Below, one piece after another: positions 8,246 through 19,632 of a DNA stretch of 24,191 bases (the stretch's first letter is position 1; each line of letters starts with the position of its first letter). Under the pieces are notes generated by a model. The model ran no database searches and was not told where the DNA came from. It saw only the letters and a program-made list of their open reading frames with translations. Origin of the DNA: a virus (lineage: Duplodnaviria; Heunggongvirae; Uroviricota; Caudoviricetes); IMG/VR virus record IMGVR_UViG_2734482770_000005, positions 1 to 24,191 of that record; one strand, given 5' to 3'. A program made the translations under genes and the position numbers.

Positions 8246-10087
8246 ATGTTAGAACTTAACGTCAGCCGCTTATCAAACGTTGTCACCTTCCAGGTTGATC
8301 GACCATCATTAGAGAAAGCAAAAGCAGAAGTAGAAAAACTTCGTAAACAAATGGCGGCGGTGAAAGATATAGAATTGCGTGTTAAGACACATAAACAATC
8401 AACTTCTAAAGCAAAAAAAGACGTAGACGATATTGCTAAAAAGCAAGCACAGGCAGATAAAGCCAATGCTAAAGCACAATTAGCCGCTCAACGTGTAGTT
8501 GCAAGAGAACAAAAAGCCCTGGCAGCACGCAAAGAGAAGGCAGACTTAAAACTGTTAGACGTTGGATCAAGCATTAGTGCATTGCACCGCCTTTCTGTAG
8601 CGGAACAATATAAAGCTATTGCACAGGCTAGAGAAATTGCCCTCCAATATGAAAGAGGAGCTATTAGTCTGGCACGTATGAATAGCCAAATGAAACGCCT
8701 ACAACAGCAACAACGTAAGATTAATGGCAATCGTAACGCTCACGCTAAAGCCTATGCACCTGTTAAGGGTAGCGGGAGTATTGGCGGCGGTGCTGCGGCT
8801 GTTATGCTGGGTGGCTTAGGCGCTGGCGCTACGTATATGGCTATGAGCAAAGCCTCTGAATTTGTTACTAACAGCTTTGCGAATGCTGAAACGCTGGGTG
8901 AATTGTATAGCCGTGCGAAGCTGGGCGGTGTAGACGTTAACCAGATGAACAATATTGAGCAATGGGCCTACAAAAACGGCGTTGATTCAATGATGGGGGA
9001 TCAAGGTAAACGTAAGTATCTCGATCAGATGAAAGATGTGCGTGAGCGTGCAACCAAAAGCTATGATGAGGCTGAATATGTAGTCGATAAAAAAACAGGC
9101 AAAGGTGAATGGAAGGGCGGCGATAGCGGCATCAATACTTTAATGAATGAAGGATTCTTAACTAAAAAGGATCTAAAAGACTTTGCTGATAATCCGGCTG
9201 GTCTGGTTAGTAAAGCAGTTCAGGGAATGGTGAAGAAAGGCTATTCAGATGCACAAATCGGTAGTCGTCTGGAAGATCTGGCTGATGATTTGATGCTCAC
9301 CTCTAAATACTGGACACGCTCCGCTAAAGAAGTGGAACAATCAGCACGAGAACAACGAGAATCAGGGCGCTGGGTAACACAGGCACAACAGGAAAGCGTT
9401 ATTAAATTCCGTGAACTGAATAATGCACTTAGTGGGCTTTCTGACTCACAAGGGATCGCCTTTGTTGATGGCTTTATGAAATCTCTTGATCCGAAAGTGA
9501 TTGAAGAGTTTAAAAAGAGCATGGTTGCAATGCTGCCAATGTTTACCAAATTAGGCGAGGCTATCGGCGGATTGGTTAACGCCGTAATGAAAACAATCAA
9601 CTGGCTGATGAAAAACGACGAGAAGACGGAAGCTATTCAGAAGAATTTAGGGGATGCACCGCCACTATCTAACGAAGGAATGAAGCAGAATCTTTCTAAT
9701 CTCACTCCTGATCAATATAAAGGCGCTGGCACCGGAACAACTAAGCCAGATAACAGCAATTCCCTGGTTAACACTATTAAAAGCTGGTTTATGCCAGAAG
9801 AAACGGTAGGTGGGGCGCAGGCTGTAAATCAATACAGTCTCGAAGGACAAAACATTGCAAATCTGAAACAGAGTGCAGCACAACAAGCTTTCAAGGCTCC
9901 TTCTTACACCTTTGCACCTGTTATTAACTTCAATCCAGAATTACAAGTAAATGCAGAAGTGCCGCTAACTATCGAATCAGACACCGGACGATTGAGCGAA
10001 TTTATCGACTTCAAATCAAAGGCATCCTCCGCTGAGTTTAGCAAGCTATTAACGCTGGGTGTTATGTCAGGCGGGTCAACCTATTAA
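8246..10087 (+). CDS. large coiled-coil protein with Gly/Ala-rich hydrophobic segment (613 aa); tape-measure-like or membrane-associated structural protein
   Basis: N-terminal 150 aa are Lys/Ala/Gln/Glu-rich heptad-like sequence (EKAKAEVEKLRKQMAAVK..., KAQLAAQRVVAREQKALAARKEKADLK); then GSGSIGGGAAAVMLGGLGAGATYMAM, a glycine-zipper-like hydrophobic stretch. Confidence 0.6.
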   Translation: MLELNVSRLSNVVTFQVDRPSLEKAKAEVEKLRKQMAAVKDIELRVKTHKQSTSKAKKDVDDIAKKQAQADKANAKAQLAAQRVVAREQKALAARKEKADLKLLDVGSSISALHRLSVAEQYKAIAQAREIALQYERGAISLARMNSQMKRLQQQQRKINGNRNAHAKAYAPVKGSGSIGGGAAAVMLGGLGAGATYMAMSKASEFVTNSFANAETLGELYSRAKLGGVDVNQMNNIEQWAYKNGVDSMMGDQGKRKYLDQMKDVRERATKSYDEAEYVVDKKTGKGEWKGGDSGINTLMNEGFLTKKDLKDFADNPAGLVSKAVQGMVKKGYSDAQIGSRLEDLADDLMLTSKYWTRSAKEVEQSAREQRESGRWVTQAQQESVIKFRELNNALSGLSDSQGIAFVDGFMKSLDPKVIEEFKKSMVAMLPMFTKLGEAIGGLVNAVMKTINWLMKNDEKTEAIQKNLGDAPPLSNEGMKQNLSNLTPDQYKGAGTGTTKPDNSNSLVNTIKSWFMPEETVGGAQAVNQYSLEGQNIANLKQSAAQQAFKAPSYTFAPVINFNPELQVNAEVPLTIESDTGRLSEFIDFKSKASSAEFSKLLTLGVMSGGSTY

Positions 10088-10134
10088 TCATCACTGTGGG
10101 GCTGTTTAGCCCCCTTAAATAAGGATTACAAATT

Positions 10135-10812
10135 ATGGCAATGGGTCCGTTAACCATTGGTCGCCCGACTGAGGCGAAAATCAACAGCACAAGCAACGAT
10201 AGCAACGGTAGAACAACCAAAGGGGGTAACGGCTTTGCGATCATTACCTCTAATCTCGGCAGTGGTGCAAATGCTGCTTACAATGACTACCAGGCATTAT
10301 CATTTGATAGCGTGGAATCGACGAAAGTTAGCAGAAATGCGGACGTTACAAGCTATGCCGTCGAATCAGGATCAGAAGTTAGTGATCATGTTCAAATACG
10401 GAATAACAAGTTCACATTACAAGGGCGTATCTCTGAAACCGTATTGAAGCTCAATCCTGATATGATTAAGAATGCTGGAATTAACGGCAATCGACGTATG
10501 CTTATGCTTGAATACCTAAATCAGTTGATGGACAGTCGCCAACCTTTCCTACTTGTCACTGAGTTAAAAAATTATGACAACGTTGTGTTAGTTGGCATGT
10601 CTTACGAAGAAGAAGCAAGCGAAAGCCTATTGTTTACTCTTGATTTTGAGCAAATCCGTCTTGTCTCTAAAGCAACTACAAGCGCAATTGCGGTAAAAAC
10701 AGCACCAAATAAATCTGTAGGAGGCCAGGTTAAAATGCAGGTAAATACAACAGAACAGAAAAATCAAAAAAGCCCAGGGCAAGACGTTGTAACGCCAGTA
10801 TTTAAACAATAG
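10135..10812 (+). CDS. hypothetical protein (225 aa)
   Basis: aagga ribosome-binding site; follows the 613 aa gene after a short hairpin-containing gap. Confidence 0.55.
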   Translation: MAMGPLTIGRPTEAKINSTSNDSNGRTTKGGNGFAIITSNLGSGANAAYNDYQALSFDSVESTKVSRNADVTSYAVESGSEVSDHVQIRNNKFTLQGRISETVLKLNPDMIKNAGINGNRRMLMLEYLNQLMDSRQPFLLVTELKNYDNVVLVGMSYEEEASESLLFTLDFEQIRLVSKATTSAIAVKTAPNKSVGGQVKMQVNTTEQKNQKSPGQDVVTPVFKQ

Positions 10813-10853
10813 CCTTAAACGCCTATGAAACGCTCTGTAACGAGATAATCATA

Positions 10854-10885
10854 AAAGAGGCATCAGTCTATATTGAAGCCTCTTT
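10854..10885. terminator. hairpin between convergent genes, candidate intrinsic terminator (best fit for the - strand integrase transcript)
   Basis: Perfect 8-bp stem aaagaggc / gcctcttt around a 16-nt loop; on the - strand the stem is followed by a U-rich run (uuuuaugauuau). Confidence 0.4.
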
Positions 10886-10892
10886 ATTACGT

Positions 10893-12257
10893 CTATAGCG
10901 TTGTTTTACGCCTTAAATTTGATTTTTTATTGATTGATAAGCCTTTCTCTATTTCAGGGTAGCGTAAAAGCTCAATATATTTTTTAAGCTCTATTGGAGA
11001 AGCTGCATTTTTGCTATATGTGCGGAATGTTTCTGTATTGCCGCGTGTATGGCCCAGGAGAAGGGCGATCCTGTCTTCTGGAATTTGATTTCGATCAAGA
11101 AGCTGTGCTACTCCGTGTCTCAGAGAATGAAACACTTTCCTTTCTGTTCCCTTTTCCCCTAAAGCCTTTCGTTTAGCTCTTGTAAATCGTTGTGTATGCC
11201 ACGTAGAGCGTTTACCGTCAGCACGTTCTGTAATGCTGGCGTGATAGAACAAAAAGCCATTGTGAGGCTTTTCACGCAGCGACAACACCAACGGAGTGAT
11301 AAGGTTATGCACAGGCACAACACGTGCCGCAGCTTTCGTCTTTCCCTGTGTGATTTCAAAACACAGCACACCTTCGATCTCTTTCACATCGTCTATTGTG
11401 AGACTTGCTATCTCATTGATCCGCATACCTGTATATAAACCGATAAGACACAAAGCCGTCATTTCTTTGTTTTCTGCTGAATTACCGGAAAATACTTGCA
11501 ACACCTGCAATAGCTCTTTGTTAGAAAATGCCTCGTAGCTCTCTCTACTTTGTGCCACATCAAGCCTATGCCCTCGCCAGGGGGAGAGCGCCCTTTCTGG
11601 CGCATCGTGGTAACGTGATGAAGCTAATTCCCATAGCTGGGCCATTGGACTGATATAATTTGCAATTGATTGTTGTGAAAGAGTTTTTTGCATGTGTTCA
11701 ATCCAGCCTGTAACAGTGGTGCGGCTTACATCTTGCAATGCAATATCAGGCTTTTTACGGTAGGAGAGAAACATCTCTACCGCTTTTCTTGCCTTAGCTA
11801 AAGTGGCTGGCTTCTTCTTCGTGCTGTTAATTGTCAGGTAGATTTCAAGAATTTTAAGCAATGACGGACACGAAGACGCTGTATCTTGCACTCTGGTAGC
11901 TGTTTTGGCGTATTTAGCCTTACTGCGTAACAGTTCCAGCGTGTTTTCTATTGTGCTGTTTACAGGGGCAACACTCTCCCGTAAGCAATGGTATTCATCT
12001 GCAATCTGATCACGCTTTCTACGTGCAACACGAAGATTACTTGTGTGTAGACTTCTGACAAACGTCCTTTTTCCTTCAAAAAAGGGCTGCATATACACAG
12101 GCAGCGTGATCCTTAAATAGTAGTTACCGTAAGAATCACAGATTAAGTATTGGTTAGGCTTGTATCTCATAAAATCTCCGGCTAAAGTGTCGGAGCGTTT
12201 GTAATGTGAAAATTGATTGTGACGCATAGAAAATGATGATTTTTCTATAAGATTCAA
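10893..12257 (-). CDS. tyrosine recombinase / phage-type integrase (454 aa)
   Basis: C-terminal catalytic region carries integrase signatures: GMRINEIASLTIDDV, HSLRHGVAQLL (H-x-x-R box) and LLGHTRGNTETFRTYSKN (tyrosine nucleophile region). Confidence 0.8.
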   Translation of the reverse strand: MNLIEKSSFSMRHNQFSHYKRSDTLAGDFMRYKPNQYLICDSYGNYYLRITLPVYMQPFFEGKRTFVRSLHTSNLRVARRKRDQIADEYHCLRESVAPVNSTIENTLELLRSKAKYAKTATRVQDTASSCPSLLKILEIYLTINSTKKKPATLAKARKAVEMFLSYRKKPDIALQDVSRTTVTGWIEHMQKTLSQQSIANYISPMAQLWELASSRYHDAPERALSPWRGHRLDVAQSRESYEAFSNKELLQVLQVFSGNSAENKEMTALCLIGLYTGMRINEIASLTIDDVKEIEGVLCFEITQGKTKAAARVVPVHNLITPLVLSLREKPHNGFLFYHASITERADGKRSTWHTQRFTRAKRKALGEKGTERKVFHSLRHGVAQLLDRNQIPEDRIALLLGHTRGNTETFRTYSKNAASPIELKKYIELLRYPEIEKGLSINKKSNLRRKTTL

Positions 12258-12314
12258 TCAATTAGTAATGGTCGTAGGTGATGGCATTAACACGAGATTA
12301 ATCGAGTGTTTTAC

Positions 12315-12332
12315 TCCTATTATCGGCACCAT
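12315..12332. repeat. candidate attL core of the P4-like element (direct repeat of 23639-23655)
   Basis: tcctattatcggcaccat here matches tcctattatcgcaccat at 23639-23655 with one 1-nt indel; both copies sit at the expected outer edges (int side and crr side). Confidence 0.4.
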
Positions 12333-12495
12333 CTCCACTTCTTCAAACATCCGTATTTATCCATAACCGCACTGTTTTATAAAAGATTTTTTGTTTTTAC
12401 TGTTCGTATTAGTCCATAACTTTCCAGTAGAATCCAGTACTAAATGTGTATAGGATTATGTATATGTTCCTGTTCGATTTTGGAATTCTATACAC

Positions 12496-13680
12496 ATGCC
12501 CCTAAATGATATGCAGATTCGCCGTGCTAAACCTGAAGCTAAAGCCTATACACTTGGGGATGGGCAAGGGTTGTCTTTACTTGTAGAGCCAAATGGAAGT
12601 AAAAGCTGGCGATTTCGTTATCGCTATGCCGGTAAACCCAAAATGATCTCGCTTGGTGTTTACCCAACGATCACTCTTGCTGATGCTCGTTCCCGTCGTG
12701 ATGAAGCTCGAAAACTTGTGGCAGAAGGAAAGAACCCTAGTGAGGTTCGAAAAGAGCAAAAGCTGGCTCTGCAAACAGAGTCAGAGAACGCCTTCGAAAA
12801 GATAGCCAGAGAGTGGCATCAACAGAAGTCTACCAAATGGTCGGCGGGATATGCATCAGACATCATGGAAGCGTTTAAGAACGACATTTTTCCTTATGTG
12901 GGAACAAGGCCAGTGGGAGAGATTAAACCGCTAGAACTGCTTAATGTGCTGCGTAAAATCGAAAAGCGCGGTGCATTAGAAAAAATGCGCAAAGTTCGGC
13001 AGCGATGCTCAGAAGTTTTCCGCTATGCCATTGCTACTGGAAGGGCTGAGTTTAACCCTGCTGCGGATCTTTCAAGCGCCCTCAATGTACACCAATCAAA
13101 TCATTTCCCGTTCTTAAAGGCTAATGAGATACCTGATTTTCTTCGCGCCTTAAACGGATATACCGGAAGTCGGCTTGTCCTGATTGCCACGAAATTGCTC
13201 ATGATTACAGGTGTTAGAACCATCGAATTACGTGCGGCATTATGGTCAGAATTTGATTTAGATAACGCTATTTGGGAAATTCCTGCTGAAAGGATGAAAA
13301 TGCGCAGATCACACCTTGTGCCTTTGTCGACTCAAGCGTTAGATTTGCTAAATGAACTCAAGATGATGACAGGGAAGTATAGTTATGTTTTTCCGGGGCG
13401 GAACGATCCGAACAAGCCTATGAGTGAGGCGAGTATTAACCAAGTTATCAAGCGTATTGGTTATGGTGGAAAACTTACTGGTCATGGATTTCGACATTCC
13501 TTATCTACTATCCTCCACGAAAAAGGATATGATTCGGCTTGGATAGAAATACAGCTTGCTCATATAGATAAGAATAATATTAGAGGTACGTATAATCATG
13601 CTCAATATATTGATAAACGCCGTGATATGATGCAGTGGTATTCAGATTATATTTTTATTAAGGAGAATGTGAATGAGTAA
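12496..13680 (+). CDS. int: P4-type tyrosine integrase (394 aa)
   Basis: N-terminal arm-binding region typical of P4/CP4-57 integrases (MQIRRAKPEAKAYTLGDGQGLSLLVEPNGSKSWRFRYRYAGK); C-terminal catalytic motifs HGFRHSLSTIL and LAHIDKNNIRGTYNHAQYIDKRRDMMQWY. Confidence 0.9.
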   Translation: MPLNDMQIRRAKPEAKAYTLGDGQGLSLLVEPNGSKSWRFRYRYAGKPKMISLGVYPTITLADARSRRDEARKLVAEGKNPSEVRKEQKLALQTESENAFEKIAREWHQQKSTKWSAGYASDIMEAFKNDIFPYVGTRPVGEIKPLELLNVLRKIEKRGALEKMRKVRQRCSEVFRYAIATGRAEFNPAADLSSALNVHQSNHFPFLKANEIPDFLRALNGYTGSRLVLIATKLLMITGVRTIELRAALWSEFDLDNAIWEIPAERMKMRRSHLVPLSTQALDLLNELKMMTGKYSYVFPGRNDPNKPMSEASINQVIKRIGYGGKLTGHGFRHSLSTILHEKGYDSAWIEIQLAHIDKNNIRGTYNHAQYIDKRRDMMQWYSDYIFIKENVNE

Positions 13681-15301
13681 CGAGTTTGATAGTAGTAAAC
13701 TAGAAAATTGCTTTGAGCTTGCATTGGAAAATATTATAAAGCACGGCGATACAGATATTTTCCCTTACCCATTTGAAAGTCGGTTATTTGAAGATGATAA
13801 GGAGAAAGTAAAAACTGCATTAATGCAAACATTTAATGACTTTGAAAATAAAAGGATCGAGATTCCACCAAACATAATTAATAGCTTTTCAAGTATTGGT
13901 TATTATGGTTACAGGTGGGCGACCCAAATTGATCCATTCTGGAATGCTTTTTTTCTTGGGTTAGTTTTAAAAATCGCTGATGATATTGAAAGGAATAGAT
14001 CTACTAAAACGCAGGTTTATTCATATCGCTTTAAACCAAACCTTGCTGATGGTTCTCTTTTTGATAAAGAGATCTCTTGGAGAAAATATCAAGAAGACAG
14101 TATCTCTGAATGTTCTAACGATGAAATAAAGTATGTACTTACATGCGATATAGCAGATTTCTATCCGCGTATTTATCACCACCGTTTAGAAAATGCGTTA
14201 GATAGAGTCGACCCCAATAAAGATTACTCTGGGAAAATCAAGAAATTACTACAGACATTTAGTGAAACAAAATCATATGGAGTACCAGTTGGATGTCCTG
14301 CCTCTAGAATATTAGCAGAACTAGCTCTAGATTCTATTGATAAATTATTGTCTATGAATAGAATCAACTATAAGCGTTATGTCGACGACTTTGTTATTTT
14401 TTGTAACTCTAGAGAGGATGCTCATAAGATTTTAACTTTGCTTAGTAAAAAACTGATGGAAAATGAAGGGCTAACTTTACAGAAACAAAAAACCAATATT
14501 GTTACTAAAGAAGAGTTCCTTTCAGTAACTAAAGCTAAGTTGCATGGTAATGATGAAGATGAAGAATCTCCTATGAAGGCTAAATTTATGAGTCTTCCTA
14601 TAAGATTCGATCCTTACTCAGCAAATGCGATAGAGGAATATGAAGAGATAAAGGAATCTTTAAAAGATTTTGACTTGTTAGCTATGCTGAGTAGTGAGTT
14701 ACAAAAATCAAAAATTAACCAATCTTTTAGCAAGCATTTGATAAAGGCATTCTCAGCAACATCAGATGAAATAATAAGTAGTGCTTTCAAAGTAATGTTT
14801 AATAACTTGCATGAGTTATATCCAATATTTACAACTATAATTCAAGTAGCTAACTCCAACTGGCAAAAATTAAGCACAGAAACCAAAGATATTATTCTTG
14901 ATAAAATAACTGCACTAATTAAACAAGATTCATATATTTTGAGTACTGAGCTCAACTTAGCCTATGTAGCCCGAATGCTCTCAAAAGAAAATTCAGAAAA
15001 ATCCACCCTAATCCTTAGTGAAATATACAATAACAATCCAGAAAGCATCTTAGTCAAGAACATAGTTACACAGTCAATGGCAAAAATTAATTCTTACGCA
15101 TGGCTTTCTGATATCAAAAAAAATTTCTCTGCAATGCATCCGTTGCAGAGAAGACTATTGATCGTTTCCAGTTACATCTTAGGTGATGAAGGACGGCACT
15201 GGAGAGAGCATAATAAGAAAACATTCAACTTTGTAGAGGTGATTTACAGGGATTGGGCAAGTAAAAGGCATACCGCAAGAAATCTTGAGGATGCGCTATG
15301 A
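13673..15301 (+). CDS. reverse transcriptase (542 aa) with helical C-terminal extension; non-retron, non-intron defence-type RT suspected
   Basis: RT motif A CDIADFYPRIYHH, motif B SYGVPVGCPASRILAELALDSID, motif C with catalytic YVDD (YKRYVDDFVIF). Start overlaps the int stop by 8 nt with aagga ribosome-binding site. GC is visibly lower than in neighbouring P4 genes. Confidence 0.85.
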   Translation: MSNEFDSSKLENCFELALENIIKHGDTDIFPYPFESRLFEDDKEKVKTALMQTFNDFENKRIEIPPNIINSFSSIGYYGYRWATQIDPFWNAFFLGLVLKIADDIERNRSTKTQVYSYRFKPNLADGSLFDKEISWRKYQEDSISECSNDEIKYVLTCDIADFYPRIYHHRLENALDRVDPNKDYSGKIKKLLQTFSETKSYGVPVGCPASRILAELALDSIDKLLSMNRINYKRYVDDFVIFCNSREDAHKILTLLSKKLMENEGLTLQKQKTNIVTKEEFLSVTKAKLHGNDEDEESPMKAKFMSLPIRFDPYSANAIEEYEEIKESLKDFDLLAMLSSELQKSKINQSFSKHLIKAFSATSDEIISSAFKVMFNNLHELYPIFTTIIQVANSNWQKLSTETKDIILDKITALIKQDSYILSTELNLAYVARMLSKENSEKSTLILSEIYNNNPESILVKNIVTQSMAKINSYAWLSDIKKNFSAMHPLQRRLLIVSSYILGDEGRHWREHNKKTFNFVEVIYRDWASKRHTARNLEDAL

Positions 15302-16038
15302 TATCTGAATTAACGTTTTCTCGAAAATTCACTTCATTTTGGAATCAATTGCTTCCAAATGCTAATAATTTCATACGCATCATTAACGGCAGTCTCATCG
15401 AGGACGTTTATCCTCCTCTAGATGACTGCGCTAATAGGTCAAATAACGTCTTTGTTAATGAGTGCGCATTTAATTTATATAGGGCAATACAGAATGATTC
15501 GTTAGACAGAAATATTCTTTCAGCACATGATATCTTCCATAATGCTGATTTTCAGGTTGTTTTTGAAAAAACAAAAGAATATCTACAGCGGTTCGCTTAC
15601 GGTTCTAACTTCAAGCTACCCTTAAGCATGGTTGAGTACAATGCCATAAGGGAAATAGCAAGAAACATTTTGTCTCGATATGGAATGGAAAACCAAATTG
15701 AAGTGTCTCCACAATTCGATGGATGCGGAGTAATAAATAATTCATATGGCGATATTTATTATTCAAATGTTCTTGTGGAAATAAAATCAGGAGATAGGAA
15801 GTTTAGTGTTTACGATCTTAGACAGGTGCTAATATATTTCACTTTAAACTTTTACTCAAAAAACAAAAGAAACATCAAGAGATTTGAGCTTTTCAATCCT
15901 CGGATGGGTATCACTTATAGTGATACCATTGTCAACCTTTGCAAAGAGTTGGCGTTTATTCAACCTGAAGAATTGTACTTTGAGATAATGAATTCTATTA
16001 CAGAAGAAAATTTCATAGTAACTGAAATGCAACGCTAG
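15298..16038 (+). CDS. RT-associated accessory protein (246 aa), putative effector; function unknown
   Basis: ATGA start/stop overlap with the RT gene (translational coupling). Soluble, no obvious transmembrane segment. Weak motifs: R-x5-H (DRNILSAHD) and D-x11-E-x-K (GDIYYSNVLVEIK). Confidence 0.6.
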   Translation: MISELTFSRKFTSFWNQLLPNANNFIRIINGSLIEDVYPPLDDCANRSNNVFVNECAFNLYRAIQNDSLDRNILSAHDIFHNADFQVVFEKTKEYLQRFAYGSNFKLPLSMVEYNAIREIARNILSRYGMENQIEVSPQFDGCGVINNSYGDIYYSNVLVEIKSGDRKFSVYDLRQVLIYFTLNFYSKNKRNIKRFELFNPRMGITYSDTIVNLCKELAFIQPEELYFEIMNSITEENFIVTEMQR

Positions 16039-16047
16039 ATATCATGC

Positions 16048-16075
16048 AGACCGCTACAATCCATTGTAGTGGTCT
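16048..16075 (+). terminator. stem-loop just after the accessory gene stop, possible terminator or RNA structure
   Basis: agaccgctacaat cc attgtagtggtct gives a 13-bp stem with one G-U pair, 10 nt after the TAG stop, followed by atttct. Confidence 0.35.
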
Positions 16076-16157
16076 ATTTCTAAACGTTCCTTCTGACGAA
16101 TAAAGCCAAAATACCAAATAGAATTAAAGAAAATTATAATATCAGCCTTAGCGCGCA

Positions 16158-16176
16158 ATGCTCCCCCCGCCACGCC
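16158..16176. other. cos: candidate cos site (P2/P4-type 19-nt cohesive end sequence)
   Basis: Minus-strand reading of 16158-16176 is GGCGTGGCGGGGGGAGCAT, which matches the P2/P4 cohesive end as I recall it (GGCGAGGCGGGGAAAGCAC) at 15 of 19 positions. It sits between the cargo and psu, where cos lies in circular P4. Confidence 0.45.
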
Positions 16177-16278
16177 CGCCCGCTTTGCGGGGCGGTTTTA
16201 ATGCAGTTGCACTGACACGCTCAGACCGCGCCGGGAATGGCGCGGTCTGCAGAAAATGAGGCAGGGAAACGCATGCAA

Positions 16279-16310
16279 AGCCATGCACCTTATCGATGCA
16301 TGGCTTTTTT
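16279..16310 (+). terminator. Rho-independent terminator (+ strand orientation) before the psu 3' end
   Basis: Perfect 9-bp stem agccatgca / tgcatggct with 9-nt loop, followed by a run of five T (16306-16310). Confidence 0.55.
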
Positions 16311-16340
16311 CAGTAAAAACGGGCGGATTTTCGGGGAATT

Positions 16341-16913
16341 TTACACAGACTGACGTGATGCCAGTTGCGCACTTTTACGCGAAAAAATCATGTTCTGCGC
16401 AGGGGTGAATTTTTCACGGCTGTCATCCACCGAAGCCGCGTCAGGCCTGAATCCGATGGTCGTTAAAATGTCGCTATCCTGTGCGGAATAATTAATTTTT
16501 TCCCCCTTCGCAAGCCAGGACAGAAGGGCTTCACGCAGGGCATCTGTGGCACGCTGTATGGCACAGTTTCGGGCAATGGCCGTCAGCTCACTGTAGCCCA
16601 TCAGCTCCGGTGCCAGTGCGGCCGCCAGTACTGTGCCGTGCTGCTGCATAAAATCATTCAGCCGGTCGCGGATGCTGATGTGCTGAACGGCTTCATGCGA
16701 ACGAATATAACGACCGGCGGCCTGATTCACCTGCCATTTTCTGACTTCGATAATATTGCGTAATTCGTCCAGGCGGCTGACGTTTCTGCCTTCTCCTGAC
16801 AGAAGCCGCAGATATTCCTGTTCGGCCGCTGCCAGCTCATTTTTGCGTTGCAGCCATGCTGCTTTGTTATTCTGACAGGTGTCAAAGGCCTGCTGTAAGG
16901 CTGTGCTTTCCAT
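16341..16913 (-). CDS. psu: P4 Psu (polarity suppression / capsid decoration protein), 190 aa
   Basis: 190 aa, the P4 Psu length; the sequence MESTALQQAFDTCQNNKAAWLQRKNELAAAEQEY... matches P4 Psu as I recall it; position immediately 5' of delta and sid on the same strand. Confidence 0.8.
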   Translation of the reverse strand: MESTALQQAFDTCQNNKAAWLQRKNELAAAEQEYLRLLSGEGRNVSRLDELRNIIEVRKWQVNQAAGRYIRSHEAVQHISIRDRLNDFMQQHGTVLAAALAPELMGYSELTAIARNCAIQRATDALREALLSWLAKGEKINYSAQDSDILTTIGFRPDAASVDDSREKFTPAQNMIFSRKSAQLASRQSV

Positions 16914-16986: not shown

Positions 16987-17487
16987 TCATTCCAGACGCA
17001 GCGAATATGATTGTGTTTTTAAGCGTACTGGCGGCAGTTCCTGTTTTTCATGCAGGCTTTCTGCCAGTTCGTCCGGCGTGACCGGGCGGACAATGAAGCG
17101 GTTGATGGTCTGAAGCGTTTTAAACACCAGACCACAGCCCGGATCCGTGCACACATAAAAACGCTCGGTGACTTCCTGAGACAGACGCCGCGATGTTCTT
17201 GACAGTGCAAGGCCTTTACATCTCCGACAACAATATCCGGTAACAAGCATTCTTTTCGGGCGTTTCATACTGCCGGAGGCTGACGTCAGTGAATCGCGGT
17301 ATCTCTGTTTGCCTGAAATGTATTCCATTCCTGAATCTTTACAGTCAGAGAAAAAGCTTTCACTCGCTTCAAATGTCGCAGAGCAATAAATATTCCGGCA
17401 CTGTGCAATCATTATCTTGGTGCCATCGTCCATGAAATGTGCGCGACGGGTGTGAGCAACATGTCCACACGACGGGCAGTAAATCAT
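16987..17487 (-). CDS. delta: P4 Delta late-gene activator (Ogr/Delta zinc-finger family), 166 aa
   Basis: Two Cys-rich Ogr-like modules (CPSCGHVAH...CRNIYC and CCRRCKG...CTDPGC); 166 aa as in P4 Delta; overlaps the sid stop by 4 nt. Confidence 0.85.
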   Translation of the reverse strand: MIYCPSCGHVAHTRRAHFMDDGTKIMIAQCRNIYCSATFEASESFFSDCKDSGMEYISGKQRYRDSLTSASGSMKRPKRMLVTGYCCRRCKGLALSRTSRRLSQEVTERFYVCTDPGCGLVFKTLQTINRFIVRPVTPDELAESLHEKQELPPVRLKTQSYSLRLE

Positions 17488-18218
17488 GACAGCAGTCCTC
17501 TGGCCTTAAGCTCTGCTCCCTGCTGGTCTATTTTGTCCTGCCACACCTTGCGCTGTGCCGGTGTGCCTGCCACCTCATAATCCATGTGCGGGAGTGTTGC
17601 CGCTGACAGTCCGGTCAGCCGGAGAACCGGCTCGCCGGTGAGGCTGATTTGCATCTGTTTTATTTTCTGTTCCAGCGATGATTTCACCTGCTGCATGACA
17701 GCTTTATCGGGTGCGACGTAGCCCTGATGGCCGGTGGTGTTGGCGAGCGGATTTTCCTGTACCAGGATGCTCAGATGCATTGCCCGGACAAGCGCCTCAC
17801 AGGTTTCATTCAGGGCGTGTTCCAGCTCATTCTCTGCATACAGACTCAGAAGGTGATGATGTGCCTTCCGGTAGGCGGTGGCCGTGCTGTCACACGCCCC
17901 TTTCAGGCGTTCACGTTCAAAATTCAGCACCACGGCCAGATTGTCATATTCCTGTACCAGCTCCCGGCGTGCCACGCGCTCAATGTGGCGCTGTTTCAGC
18001 TCGTCGCTCAGGACACCACCGGCTGCACGAAAGGCCGTGCGCCAGTCGTCAGCGTCGTTTCCGTCGGCCTGCGCCAGCGCATTTTTTTCCTGCTCTGCCC
18101 GTTCAATGGCCGTGACGGTCTCATCCATCAGGCGGGCGTTCTCAAGATGGGCGGCTCTGGCCTTTTCCAGTTGTGCCAGCGCGGGTTGCAGATATTCAGG
18201 GATGGTGTTGTCAGACAT
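17484..18218 (-). CDS. sid: P4 Sid (capsid size determination external scaffold), 244 aa from MSDNTIPEY
   Basis: The track ORF 17484-18284 extends upstream of the likely start; the ATG at 18218 is preceded by aggagccggaaa and gives 244 aa (the P4 Sid length as I recall it). The protein is largely helical and coiled-coil-like. Confidence 0.8.
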   Translation of the reverse strand: MSDNTIPEYLQPALAQLEKARAAHLENARLMDETVTAIERAEQEKNALAQADGNDADDWRTAFRAAGGVLSDELKQRHIERVARRELVQEYDNLAVVLNFERERLKGACDSTATAYRKAHHHLLSLYAENELEHALNETCEALVRAMHLSILVQENPLANTTGHQGYVAPDKAVMQQVKSSLEQKIKQMQISLTGEPVLRLTGLSAATLPHMDYEVAGTPAQRKVWQDKIDQQGAELKARGLLS

Positions 18219-18290
18219 TTTCCGGCTCCTCGTCACTTCAGGTTGAGAAAATTGTGACGTACACCGGACAACAACACGACGCATTGCAGA

Positions 18291-18491: not shown

Positions 18492-18769
18492 CGTTGATGG
18501 GCTTTTTATGCTGTTTATTACTGTTTATTTTTATTAATTCACTGAAATAAATAAGAAAAAACAATTTGCATTTCACTATAAAAAATTCCAGGTCCTTCAG
18601 AACCCTTTGAGACCCTTCCAGTCCAGATGGATAAAAAACACACAGCCATTGTAAGGCTGCCGGAACAAATCCCCCCTGTTGCGTCTGCCAAAAATATTCA
18701 CAAAATAAAGCGCTACCCGAAGCCGGACGGACTTATCCGGTGCTGTATGGACATTAACGAGGTAGCCCG

Positions 18770-19036: not shown

Positions 19037-19130
19037 TGATGCCCGCTCTGCAAAAAGTCCCTTTTTCTGGCTTGCCTTTTTCCGGCATTTGCGGATATAG
19101 TTTTTCCGCTGCCGCAAAATCGGCAGCCGG

Positions 19131-19422
19131 GCGTGAGAACCCGGGCAATCTAACGGCGACATATGACGCGCCATGCGTCTTTTTTTGTGTCGCAATCAAC
19201 GCCACAGAGCGCCAGATTATGGTGTGGTGTGTGGTCAGTCGTGCAGATGGCACTCCGTGCATCCTGCCCGCGTCCGCTCATTATGCCGCAGAGTCAATGG
19301 TAGCTCAGGCGGGGCAGCCTCCGGGCTGGCCGGTATCCGTTAGAGCCGGTATTCTCACCCCCGTCTGGGCTATCGCCATCGAGCGTGAGAACTCCGGCGA
19401 TAGCGTAACCTGCTATCTAACG
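19131..19422 (+). ncRNA. putative P4-type immunity-RNA region (seqA / seqB / seqC-like arrangement)
   Basis: Direct repeats gcgtgagaacccgggcaatctaacgg (19131-19156) and gcgtgagaactccggcga...ctatctaacgg (19383-19422) flank ccgttagagccgg (19337-19349), which is complementary to the ccggc...tctaacgg part of both repeats. No well-supported protein ORF covers the interval. Confidence 0.3.
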
Positions 19423-19435
19423 GAGGCTGCCATCA

Positions 19436-19632
19436 TGGCTACAACCCTTACCCCCTCACACCCTGAATTTGTCTTTGTGTTTGCCGCTGTCCGTCGCGCA
19501 GACCGCCATCCCCGTATCTGTATGCTTCGCACCGTCGCCGGTGATGAACGCAGCGCCCGCCGTTCCCTTGTCCGTGACTATGTGCTCTCCCTTGCTGCCC
19601 GTCTGCCGGTTGTGGAGGTGTCCCGTGCGTAA
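19436..19632 (+). CDS. hypothetical small protein (65 aa) in the P4 left-operon region
   Basis: ATG at 19436 preceded by ggagg; in frame with track ORF 18988-19632, whose upstream part looks like a GC-rich spurious extension. Confidence 0.3.

What the first reader, a model, noticed from the sequence alone, without database searches (positions are those of the whole stretch)
13666..13680. Cargo RT is translationally fused into the integrase transcript (8-nt int/RT overlap)
Seen: the RT ATG (13673) lies inside the last codons of int (stop 13678-13680) with aagga just upstream, and no promoter-like gap or terminator separates int from the cassette. This implies the cassette was acquired precisely at the int 3' boundary and may be co-expressed with int, for example on induction of the satellite. 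It also means the int C-terminus may have been remodelled by the exchange.
Basis: seen in the sequence. Interest (0 to 1): 0.45.

Follow-up and report, generated by a model that had tools for sequence, protein, structure and literature searches.

The report
Integrase–defence gene overlap in P4 satellite
The 8-base overlap is real, but it is the ordinary operon-style joint between the integrase of an E. coli P4-like phage satellite and an already catalogued anti-phage cassette (DRT8), and other cassettes sitting in the same orientation at this site show the same tight joint.

Summary
AAGGAG lies at 13660-13665, the RT ATG at 13673 and the int TAA at 13678-13680. No promoter-like or terminator-like site on the + strand separates the genes.

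The locus is a P4-like satellite of E. coli. Its known int-psu defence hotspot holds DRT8 (UG7 reverse transcriptase plus PD-(D/E)xK nuclease), and these exact proteins are listed in Rousset 2022.

The overlap is not specific to the RT. In 21 co-directional junctions of this integrase clade (20 distinct, about 14 cargo types), the first cargo gene starts 8-24 nt after the last conserved int codon, which is -29 to +11 nt from the int stop.

The Shine-Dalgarno sequence and start codon travel with the cassette, because a non-P4 Brenneria DRT8 has the same AAGGAGA...GTGAGTAAC. The int stop is formed by RT codons 2-3.

The latest swap did not break at the int boundary. It broke inside int near 13440 and again near cos (16140-16340), so the last ~80 int codons travel with the cargo.

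"Translationally fused" is wrong, because the frames differ. Co-transcription with int is likely but was not tested. Induction-linked expression is doubtful, because P4 Pint is repressed by Int and Vis.

This is an ordinary, known system. The junction rule is a modest new detail.

The parts
12313..12331 (+). attL core: last 19 nt of tRNA-Thr (thrW), ACTCCTATTATCGGCACCA. There is no complete tRNA in the window.
   Evidence: The sequence is identical to the 3' end of tRNA-Thr in L002. Homology to thrW-adjacent loci starts at 12313. ARAGORN finds no tRNA.
12496..13680 (+). int, a P4-type tyrosine integrase of 394 aa. It appears intact.
   Evidence: Pfam Arm-DNA-bind_3, Phage_int_M and Phage_integrase. 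It is 39% identical to P4 Int through ...RR.MMQW..DY. The catalytic residues are invariant in alignment A1.
13440..13656 (+). Cargo-linked 3' segment of int. It is still homologous int coding sequence but comes from a different lineage than the 5' 940 nt. It includes the catalytic Tyr366 codon at 13591-13593.
   Evidence: Identity to the nearest backbone (L002) is 100% up to about 13440 and then 67-87%. The Citrobacter DRT8 element shows the opposite pattern, 93-96% here and 78-91% (two 60-nt windows 96-100%) upstream. In 5,426 E. coli genomes the segment is found in 105, of which 104 carry DRT8. GC falls from 0.45 to 0.33.
13657..13680 (+). Junction. The int tail codons IKENVNE-stop are read from cassette DNA and contain the RT's Shine-Dalgarno AAGGAG (13660-13665).
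   Evidence: Int tails after the conserved ...WYSDxI(F/L) are unrelated between cargos. The non-P4 Brenneria DRT8 shares AAGGAGA(N6)GTGAGTAACG and no sequence further upstream.
13673..13680 (+). 8-nt int/RT overlap ATGAGTAA. The int stop TAA is made of RT codons 2-3 (AGT AAC).
   Evidence: TAACG is invariant in four DRT8 loci.
13673..15301 (+). DRT8 reverse transcriptase (UG7, Class 1 UG/Abi), 542 aa, WP_000064054.
   Evidence: PADLOC Drt8, E = 4.9e-166. Pfam RVT_1. RefSeq accession. Listed as a P4 hotspot locus in Rousset 2022 Table S1.
15298..16038 (+). RT-associated PD-(D/E)xK nuclease, 246 aa, WP_000622599. It overlaps the RT stop by 4 nt (ATGA).
   Evidence: PADLOC RTasPDDEXK, E = 5.5e-69. 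ORFs. Mestre 2022 describes UG7 with the cluster-17 nuclease.
16126..16340 (.). Right edge of the swapped module. Conserved P4 DNA resumes here and includes a cos-like GCTCCCCCCGCCACGCC at about 16160-16176.
   Evidence: Matches in about 1,000 genomes with other cargo begin at 16126-16152. Identity to L002 is 0.15, then 0.79, 0.94 and 0.99 across 16040-16440. The sequence matches the cos-proximal P4 sequence in Rousset's cloned inserts.
16176..16195 (+). First intrinsic-terminator-like hairpin on the + strand downstream of int (CCGCCCGCTTTGCGGGGCGG followed by TTTT). It is the likely end of an int-RT-nuclease transcript.
16341..16913 (-). psu, the other flank of the hotspot. delta (16987-17487) and sid (17484-18284) follow.
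   Evidence: Pfam Psu and Ogr_Delta. Sid is 99% identical to P4 Sid.

Best explanation
The window holds an E. coli P4-like satellite integrated at thrW. Its known int-psu defence hotspot carries a DRT8 cassette (UG7 reverse transcriptase plus PD-(D/E)xK nuclease).

The cassette brings only its own ribosome-binding site and start codon. These are butted directly onto the end of the conserved integrase core. int therefore reads on through the cassette's RBS and stops at the first in-frame stop, a TAA formed by RT codons 2-3. This gives the 8-nt overlap as a geometric by-product.

int, RT and nuclease (overlaps of -8 and -4) form one operon-like unit. The first + strand terminator lies at 16176-16195, beside cos. 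I infer that the cassette has no promoter of its own and is transcribed by read-through from the int promoter. The RT would be translated mainly from its own strong SD (AAGGAG, 7-nt spacing), possibly helped by ribosomes terminating 5 nt downstream.

Cassettes are swapped between satellites by homologous recombination. One crossover lies inside int (here near 13440) and the other lies in the cos/psu flank, so the 3' third of int hitch-hikes with the cargo.

Shown here: gene identities, the junction anatomy, the generality of the junction, and the breakpoints. Inferred: co-transcription, the promoterless state of the cassette, and how translation starts.
For: Identity of the element. P4 core genes are present, as are the C4 and isrK RNAs. 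PADLOC gives Drt8 at 4.9e-166 and RTasPDDEXK at 5.5e-69. The same protein accessions appear in Rousset 2022 Table S1. UG7 was named DRT type 8 and protects against T5 (PMC9226505).

Junction. Searches show the overlap. Brenneria DRT8, which sits behind an unrelated integrase with a 185-nt spacer, shares only AAGGAGA...GTGAGTAAC with the window.

Generality. In 21 co-directional junctions (about 14 cargo types), the cargo start lies 8-24 nt (median 15.5 over the 20 that were computed) after the int core. That is -29 to +11 nt from the int stop. The three opposite-strand cargos lie 28-130 nt away, and one of them has what looks like a terminator hairpin directly after int. DRT8 behind a 41%-identical int allele in C. 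portucalensis again starts 2 nt after the stop.

Operon signals. No + strand terminator-like site is found before 16176, and no + strand promoter-like site lies in or after int until 13878. Distances of this size are the strongest single predictor of same-operon pairs in E. coli (established knowledge: Salgado et al. 2000).

Swap by recombination. The backbone of strain STEC409 is 98-100% identical at 12330-13440 and from about 16340 onward, but it carries AAA+HNH cargo. int is a mosaic. The int 3' segment is linked to DRT8 in 104 of 105 genomes.
Against: No transcript data were available, so co-transcription is not demonstrated. The promoter scan is insensitive. It does not detect int's own promoter in the window either, although it does find a Pint-like site in P4. 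The cargo-linked, AT-rich int 3' segment could hide a cassette-specific promoter. A perfect TATAAT sits on the Tyr-Asn codons at 13591-13596. Mestre 2022 reports DRT8 activity with 'native promoter' constructs, but I could not see which upstream DNA was included. Integrases are usually expressed weakly and P4 Pint is autorepressed, which might be too little for a defence system. Start codons in the IMG/VR loci are my own calls, not curated annotation.
Confidence: 0.6

Rival explanations
1. A dedicated promoter is embedded in the 3' coding part of int, within the segment that travels with the cargo. In that case the cassette is expressed independently of int and the tight joint only reflects compaction.
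For: The last ~240 nt of int are AT-rich (GC 0.33-0.38) and co-segregate with the cargo. A perfect -10 hexamer TATAAT lies at 13591-13596. Published screens obtained defence from some int-co-directional P4 systems cloned from a primer placed on the RGTYNH codons.
Against: No site on the + strand passes the consensus scan anywhere in int. The best -35 partner for that TATAAT is ATAAGA, 3 of 6 (my reading). Among 25 unique alleles the hexamer is TATAAT in 14, TATAAC in 8, TACAAT in 2 and TACAAC in 1, and third codon positions upstream vary freely, so no shared embedded promoter is conserved. The active Rousset constructs of that orientation have their own spacers of about 60 to 130 nt. The one tight-junction construct I could identify (NOD-2, +3 nt) showed no activity, though this is only a single case.
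Confidence: 0.3
2. Translational coupling is obligatory. Under this view RT synthesis requires ribosomes that have translated int and reinitiate at the overlapping AUG, so the RT level is set by int translation.
For: The 8-nt overlap places the int stop 5 nt downstream of the RT AUG. Overlaps or gaps of 11 nt or less are the rule for co-directional cargo.
Against: The RT has a near-consensus SD at optimal spacing. That SD is kept in the free-standing Brenneria copy, where no upstream ORF overlaps it. The RNA around the junction shows no significant structure that would sequester the SD or AUG (z = -1.27). The position of the int stop relative to the cargo start varies from -29 to +11, which argues that the stop position is not under tight selection.
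Confidence: 0.15
3. The overlap is an annotation artefact and the RT really starts further downstream.
For: ORF callers default to the longest ORF.
Against: TGA at 13670-13672 closes the frame immediately upstream. The residues MSNEFDSSKL align from the first codon with the Citrobacter, C. portucalensis and Brenneria homologues. The Drt8 profile aligns from residue 11. The next in-frame ATG is about 50 codons in. PGAP calls the same start.
Confidence: 0.03
4. int and the RT are made as a fusion protein by programmed frameshifting.
Against: The RT frame is closed by TGA 1 nt before its ATG, so any shift would have to occur within the 8 overlapping bases. I saw no slippery run there. Other cargos sit in all three relative frames and are often separated from int by a gap.
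Confidence: 0.01

Closest known systems
P4-like satellite int-psu defence hotspot (Rousset et al. 2022, PMC9122126)
   Same: The position between int and psu next to cos is the same. The cargo varies on near-identical backbones. The exact RT and nuclease proteins of this window are in their Table S1, where the RT family has 294 occurrences.
   Different: Nothing differs about the element itself. In the text I could search, that paper and its 2026 follow-up (PMC13586616) do not describe the int/cargo junction, gene orientation or transcription. They cloned co-directional systems from about 90 nt inside int as the 'native promoter'.
DRT type 8 (UG7 RT plus PD-(D/E)xK nuclease; Mestre et al. 2022, PMC9226505)
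   Same: Full-length hits to the PADLOC Drt8 and RTasPDDEXK profiles, the two-gene layout, and the noted presence in P4 hotspots.
   Different: The defence phenotype was not tested here. The mechanism of DRT8 is still unknown according to a 2026 review.
Canonical P4 int-cII arrangement (NC_001609)
   Same: A non-essential gene lies co-directionally downstream of int and is followed by a terminator. The scan finds no promoter-like site in the gap between them.
   Different: P4 has a 66-nt gap, a different int clade (39% identity, leuX site) and gop-beta-cII cargo.
Overlapping, translationally coupled gene pairs in bacterial operons (ATGA, TAATG and ATGnnTAA types)
   Same: Co-directional genes, the start codon inside the last codons of the upstream gene, and an SD inside the upstream coding sequence.
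   Different: Here the upstream gene is a core recombinase and the downstream gene is horizontally swapped cargo. The overlap length is not conserved between cargos.
Integron gene cassettes
   Same: By analogy only: apparently promoterless cargo docked at a fixed point beside an integrase gene and dependent on a platform promoter.
   Different: There is no attI/attC and no site-specific capture. The cargo is co-directional and downstream of int, and exchange is by homologous recombination with variable crossover points.

Membership tests
P4-like phage satellite | Core gene set: int, psu, delta, sid, alpA/vis-type HTH, epsilon/ash region and alpha primase-helicase. | tested here: met
   Pfam Psu, Ogr_Delta and the primase domains. 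Sid is 99% identical to P4 Sid. RefSeq annotation of the identical locus lists the HTH, Icd-like, DUF5375 and primase genes.
P4-like phage satellite | P4 immunity RNA region (CI/C4 RNA and its targets). | tested here: met
   Rfam C4 (74.5 bits), isrK (72.1 bits) and c4-a1b1 (49.3 bits) at 19095-19380.
P4-like phage satellite | A cos site adjacent to psu and integration into a tRNA gene. | tested here: met
   A cos-like sequence lies at about 16160-16176, matching the P4 cos-proximal sequence. The thrW 3' core lies at 12313-12331.
P4 int-psu defence hotspot cargo | A variable segment between int and psu on otherwise near-identical backbones. | tested here: met
   The STEC409 backbone is 98-100% identical on both sides but carries different cargo. 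About 14 cargo types are seen in this int clade.
DRT type 8 (UG7) | An RT that matches the UG7/Drt8 profile over its full length. | tested here: met
   PADLOC Drt8, E = 4.9e-166, residues 11-532 against profile positions 4-492 of 493. Pfam RVT_1.
DRT type 8 (UG7) | An adjacent PD-(D/E)xK nuclease partner (cluster 17). | tested here: met
   PADLOC RTasPDDEXK, E = 5.5e-69, profile positions 1-224 of 226. The gene overlaps the RT stop by 4 nt.
DRT type 8 (UG7) | Anti-phage activity that depends on the RT and nuclease active sites. | not testable with these tools
   Reported for a UG7 system against T5 by Mestre 2022. It was not tested for this copy.
Single operon / translational coupling with int | Same strand, with an intergenic distance under about 20 nt or an overlap. 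| tested here: met
   The overlaps are -8 (int/RT) and -4 (RT/nuclease).
Single operon / translational coupling with int | No terminator or promoter between the genes. | tested here: inconclusive
   The consensus scan finds none on the + strand. The scan also misses int's own promoter, so its sensitivity is low.
Single operon / translational coupling with int | One transcript spanning int and the RT. | not testable with these tools
   This needs RNA-seq, RT-PCR or 5' RACE.
Translational (protein) fusion of int and RT | A shared reading frame without an intervening stop, or a frameshift signal. | tested here: not met
   The RT is in the +1 frame. TGA at 13670-13672 closes the RT frame upstream, and I saw no slippery run in the overlap.

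The most novel reading that the evidence does not exclude
In the thrW clade of P4-like satellites, the integrase gene serves as the expression platform for promoterless defence cassettes. Each co-directional cassette is docked one RBS-length (8-24 nt) after the int core and is transcribed from the Int/Vis-autoregulated int promoter. The 3' third of int, including the catalytic His, Arg and Tyr codons, is part of the module that is swapped. If so, published screens that cloned such cassettes from about 90 nt inside int as the 'native promoter' would have under-expressed them and produced false negatives.
Probability: 0.4. Interest if true: 0.5.

Novelty: already known. Interest (0 to 1): 0.25.

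Why it matters
The element and its cargo are already catalogued, so the finding adds no new system.

The useful points are practical.

(1) Defence cassettes in this hotspot seem to arrive with only a ribosome-binding site. Their expression probably depends on the integrase transcript. This matters for how such systems are cloned and scored. Constructs that start a few dozen bases inside int may lack the real promoter.

(2) The recombination that swaps the cargo crosses over inside int. The integrase is therefore a mosaic whose catalytic end hitch-hikes with the cargo. This may help explain why integrases are poor phylogenetic markers for these satellites.

(3) If defence expression is tied to an autorepressed int promoter, that would give low, buffered expression of toxic effectors.

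Tried and rejected
RNA structure at the junction. Folding 13620-13720 gave -18.7 kcal/mol and z = -1.27, which is not significant. I therefore dropped the idea of a hairpin that masks the SD and is opened by int translation.

Conserved embedded promoter. The TATAAT on the Tyr-Asn codons varies synonymously between alleles and has no conserved -35 partner. It is rejected as a shared promoter, but an allele-specific one is not excluded.

Antisense promoter. An 11/12 match on the - strand (13673 to 13646) is not conserved in the Citrobacter copy by my reading. The number of promoter-like hits in the region equals the shuffle expectation (14 against 13.5). I treat it as chance.

ncRNA in or before the cassette. 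Rfam at gathering threshold gives nothing between 12000 and 16400. I found no report of an ncRNA partner for UG7 in the papers searched.

Alternative RT start and frameshift fusion. Both were rejected (see the rival explanations).

Mestre 2022 supplements. I looked for the upstream DNA of the tested UG7 construct, but no supplementary text is held.

Literature on the junction. Text searches of Rousset 2022, the 2026 NAR follow-up and Hochhauser 2023 found nothing on junction, orientation or co-transcription.

The ~65% integrase clade from IMG/VR (L051-L097). It has a conserved tail and 57-142 nt gaps. I did not determine what element type it belongs to, so it serves only as a loose contrast.

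Full report
OBSERVATION

The sequence reads ...ATT AAG GAG AAT GTG AAT GAG TAA in the int frame. AAGGAG is at 13660-13665, the RT ATG at 13673, and the int TAA at 13678-13680. The int ORF is 12496-13680 (394 aa) and the RT ORF is 13673-15301 (542 aa), so 8 nt are shared and the frames differ. A third ORF, 15298-16038, overlaps the RT stop by 4 nt.

A TGA at 13670-13672 closes the RT frame just upstream. ATG 13673 is therefore the only start compatible with the profile match, which begins at residue 11. RefSeq annotates the identical locus in the same way.

The consensus scan finds no sigma-70-like site on the + strand from 12200 to 13877. The first + strand terminator-like hairpin is at 16176-16195.

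WHAT THE LOCUS IS

int has the three domains of P4-type integrases. The RT hits PADLOC Drt8 at E = 4.9e-166, and the next gene hits the RT-associated PD-(D/E)xK model at 5.5e-69.

Downstream, on the other strand, lie psu, delta and a Sid that is 99% identical to P4 Sid. These are followed by the P4 immunity RNAs (C4, isrK) and the alpha primase. This is an E. coli P4-like satellite integrated at thrW. The last 19 nt of tRNA-Thr are at 12313-12331.

The int-to-psu stretch (window 12300-16400) is 100% identical in about 105 of 5,426 complete E. coli genomes.

The int-psu interval is the defence hotspot described by Rousset et al. 2022. Their Table S1 lists exactly WP_000064054 + WP_000622599, and the RT is their protein family 2 with 294 occurrences. 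UG7 plus the PD-(D/E)xK nuclease was named DRT type 8 and shown to protect against T5. Its presence in P4 hotspots was also noted (PMC9226505). The element and the cargo are therefore already known.

THE JOINT IS GENERAL, NOT RT-SPECIFIC

I collected relatives of this integrase that carry other cargo. They came from complete E. coli genomes with PGAP annotation and from IMG/VR.

For 21 co-directional junctions (20 distinct), the distance from the int stop to the first cargo start is -29, -13, -11, -11, -8, -8, -4, -4, 0, 0, +1, +1, +1, +2, +3, +3, +3, +3, +7, +11 and +11. The two -8 values are DRT8 in E. coli and in Citrobacter. The cargos include AAA+HNH, Hachiman, ABC-3C, SIR2, Gabija, HEPN, DRT3, an ORC/CDC6-like ATPase, ParA-like and OLD-like proteins.

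A better invariant is measured from the last conserved int residue (...MMQWYSDxI-phi). The cargo start lies 8-24 nt further on, with a median of 15.5 over the 20 junctions computed, which is just room for an SD.

The int tails beyond that point are unrelated and 1-14 residues long. Cargos on the opposite strand lie 28-130 nt away, and one has what looks like a terminator hairpin directly after int.

DRT8 behind a 41%-identical int allele in Citrobacter portucalensis starts 2 nt after the int stop. Canonical P4 has a 66-nt gap between int and cII.

WHERE THE CASSETTE BEGINS

A Brenneria genome carries DRT8 (RT 85% identical) behind an unrelated Integrase_1-family gene, with a 185-nt spacer. Its similarity to the window starts only about 17 nt before the start codon: AAGGAGAtagagGTGAGTAACG against AAGGAGAatgtgaATGAGTAACG.

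So the SD and the start codon belong to the cassette. The int tail IKENVNE is translated from the cassette's RBS region, and the int stop is made from RT codons 2-3 (AGT AAC). The 8-nt overlap is therefore a by-product of int reading into the cassette until the first stop.

WHERE THE EXCHANGE BROKE

The nearest backbone relative is strain STEC409, whose cargo is AAA ATPase + HNH. It is 97-100% identical to the window from 12330 to about 13440. Identity then drops to 67-87% through 13620 and to noise after about 13650.

On the other side, identity is 0.15 at 16040-16139, 0.79 at 16140-16239 and 0.94 at 16240-16339, then mostly 0.93-1.00 as far as about 20040, apart from a dip to 0.67 at 18540-18638 and 0.89 at 19339-19438. 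The last swap was therefore a homologous exchange with one crossover inside int, about 240 nt before its stop, and the other in the cos/psu flank.

Three further results agree with this.
- The Citrobacter DRT8 element is 93-96% identical to the window in 13456-13636 but mostly 78-91% in the rest of int.
- The segment 13441-13672 occurs in 105 E. coli genomes. Of these, 104 carry DRT8, and one has a reverse-strand SIR2 cargo at 93.8% identity.
- GC falls from about 0.45 to 0.33 at the same place.

int as a whole is a patchwork of 95-100% and 75-85% blocks between alleles.

HOW IT MOST LIKELY WORKS

The distances (-8 and -4), the lack of any recognisable terminator before 16176, and the loss of the spacer seen in the free-standing Brenneria copy all point one way. 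The cassette appears to be promoterless and read through from int, ending at the hairpin beside cos. The RT has a strong SD at ideal spacing, so it probably initiates on its own. Coupling to terminating int ribosomes is possible but not required. There is no significant local RNA structure (z = -1.27).

This part is inference. The promoter scan is insensitive, because it also misses int's own promoter here, although it does find a Pint-like site in P4.

I looked for a shared promoter embedded in int. The Tyr-Asn codons read TATAAT in the window, but they are TATAAC, TACAAT or TACAAC in 11 of 25 unique alleles. The upstream third codon positions vary freely. An allele-specific promoter in the cargo-linked segment cannot be excluded. 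I give that rival a probability of about 0.3.

P4's int promoter is repressed by Int and by Vis (PMC7286903). If the cassette depends on it, I would expect low buffered expression in the lysogen rather than a burst on induction.

LITERATURE CHECK

Rousset 2022 cloned int-co-directional systems from a primer on the RGTYNH codons, about 90 nt before the int stop, and called that the native promoter. The insert was oriented against the vector's pTet. The active constructs of that orientation carry their own spacers of about 60 to 130 nt. The one tight-junction construct I recognised (NOD-2, +3 nt) is among the inactive ones. That is a single case and proves nothing.

Text searches of Rousset 2022, the 2026 follow-up and Hochhauser 2023 found no mention of the junction, gene orientation or co-transcription.

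VERDICT

It is wrong in three respects. The genes are not fused, the joint is not RT-specific, and the breakpoint is not at the gene boundary. The suggested link to satellite induction is also doubtful, given how P4 Pint is regulated.

The system is already known. The RBS-length docking rule and the cargo-linked 3' end of int are modest new details with practical consequences for cloning and for integrase phylogeny.

Noticed in passing
window 8246-12257: A second mobile element lies directly upstream of the satellite. It has phage tail/baseplate genes (a Dit-like protein at 10135-10812 and a 613-aa ORF at 8246-10087) and a second tyrosine integrase on the - strand (10893-12257, DUF6538 + Phage_integrase). 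The tRNA-like fragment ggtcgtaggt at 12270-12279 suggests tandem occupancy of thrW by a prophage and the satellite.
   Followed up: partly
window 13646-13673, - strand: A near-consensus promoter-like site (TTCACA, 16-nt spacer, TATAAT; 11/12) points antisense into the int 3' end, exactly over the junction. It is not conserved in the Citrobacter copy, and the number of hits in the region equals the shuffle expectation, so it is probably chance.
   Followed up: partly
window 12496-13680, compared with L002-L046: The integrase gene is a strong mosaic. Blocks of 95-100% identity alternate with 75-85% blocks between alleles, and the most divergent block is always the last ~200 nt.
   Followed up: yes
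window 19095-19380: Rfam finds C4 antisense RNA, isrK and the c4-a1b1 target element. This is the P4 immunity region, and it overlaps ORFs listed mechanically in that stretch.
   Followed up: no
E. coli genomes NZ_CP159209 (H1), NZ_CM160080 and NZ_CM142791 (H22, H23): Some copies of this element carry an IS3 insertion within the DRT8 cassette region or an IS1 insertion within int. These are natural polar insertions that could be used to test whether RT expression depends on int.
   Followed up: no
L013 4626-5216 (Brenneria): The nuclease ORF next to the free-standing DRT8 is only 196 aa, against 246 aa here, so it may be truncated. The RT there starts with GTG.
   Followed up: no
L051-L097 (IMG/VR): A 402-aa integrase clade, 64-66% identical to this int, has a conserved C-terminal tail and a conserved ~30-nt sequence after the stop. 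The next gene follows after 57-142 nt, so the tight-junction rule does not apply there. The element type was not determined.
   Followed up: no
window 17484-18284 versus 12496-13680: Sid is 99% identical to P4 Sid, while Int is only 39% identical to P4 Int. The morphogenesis module is nearly P4 itself, but the integration module belongs to a different clade (thrW rather than leuX).
   Followed up: partly
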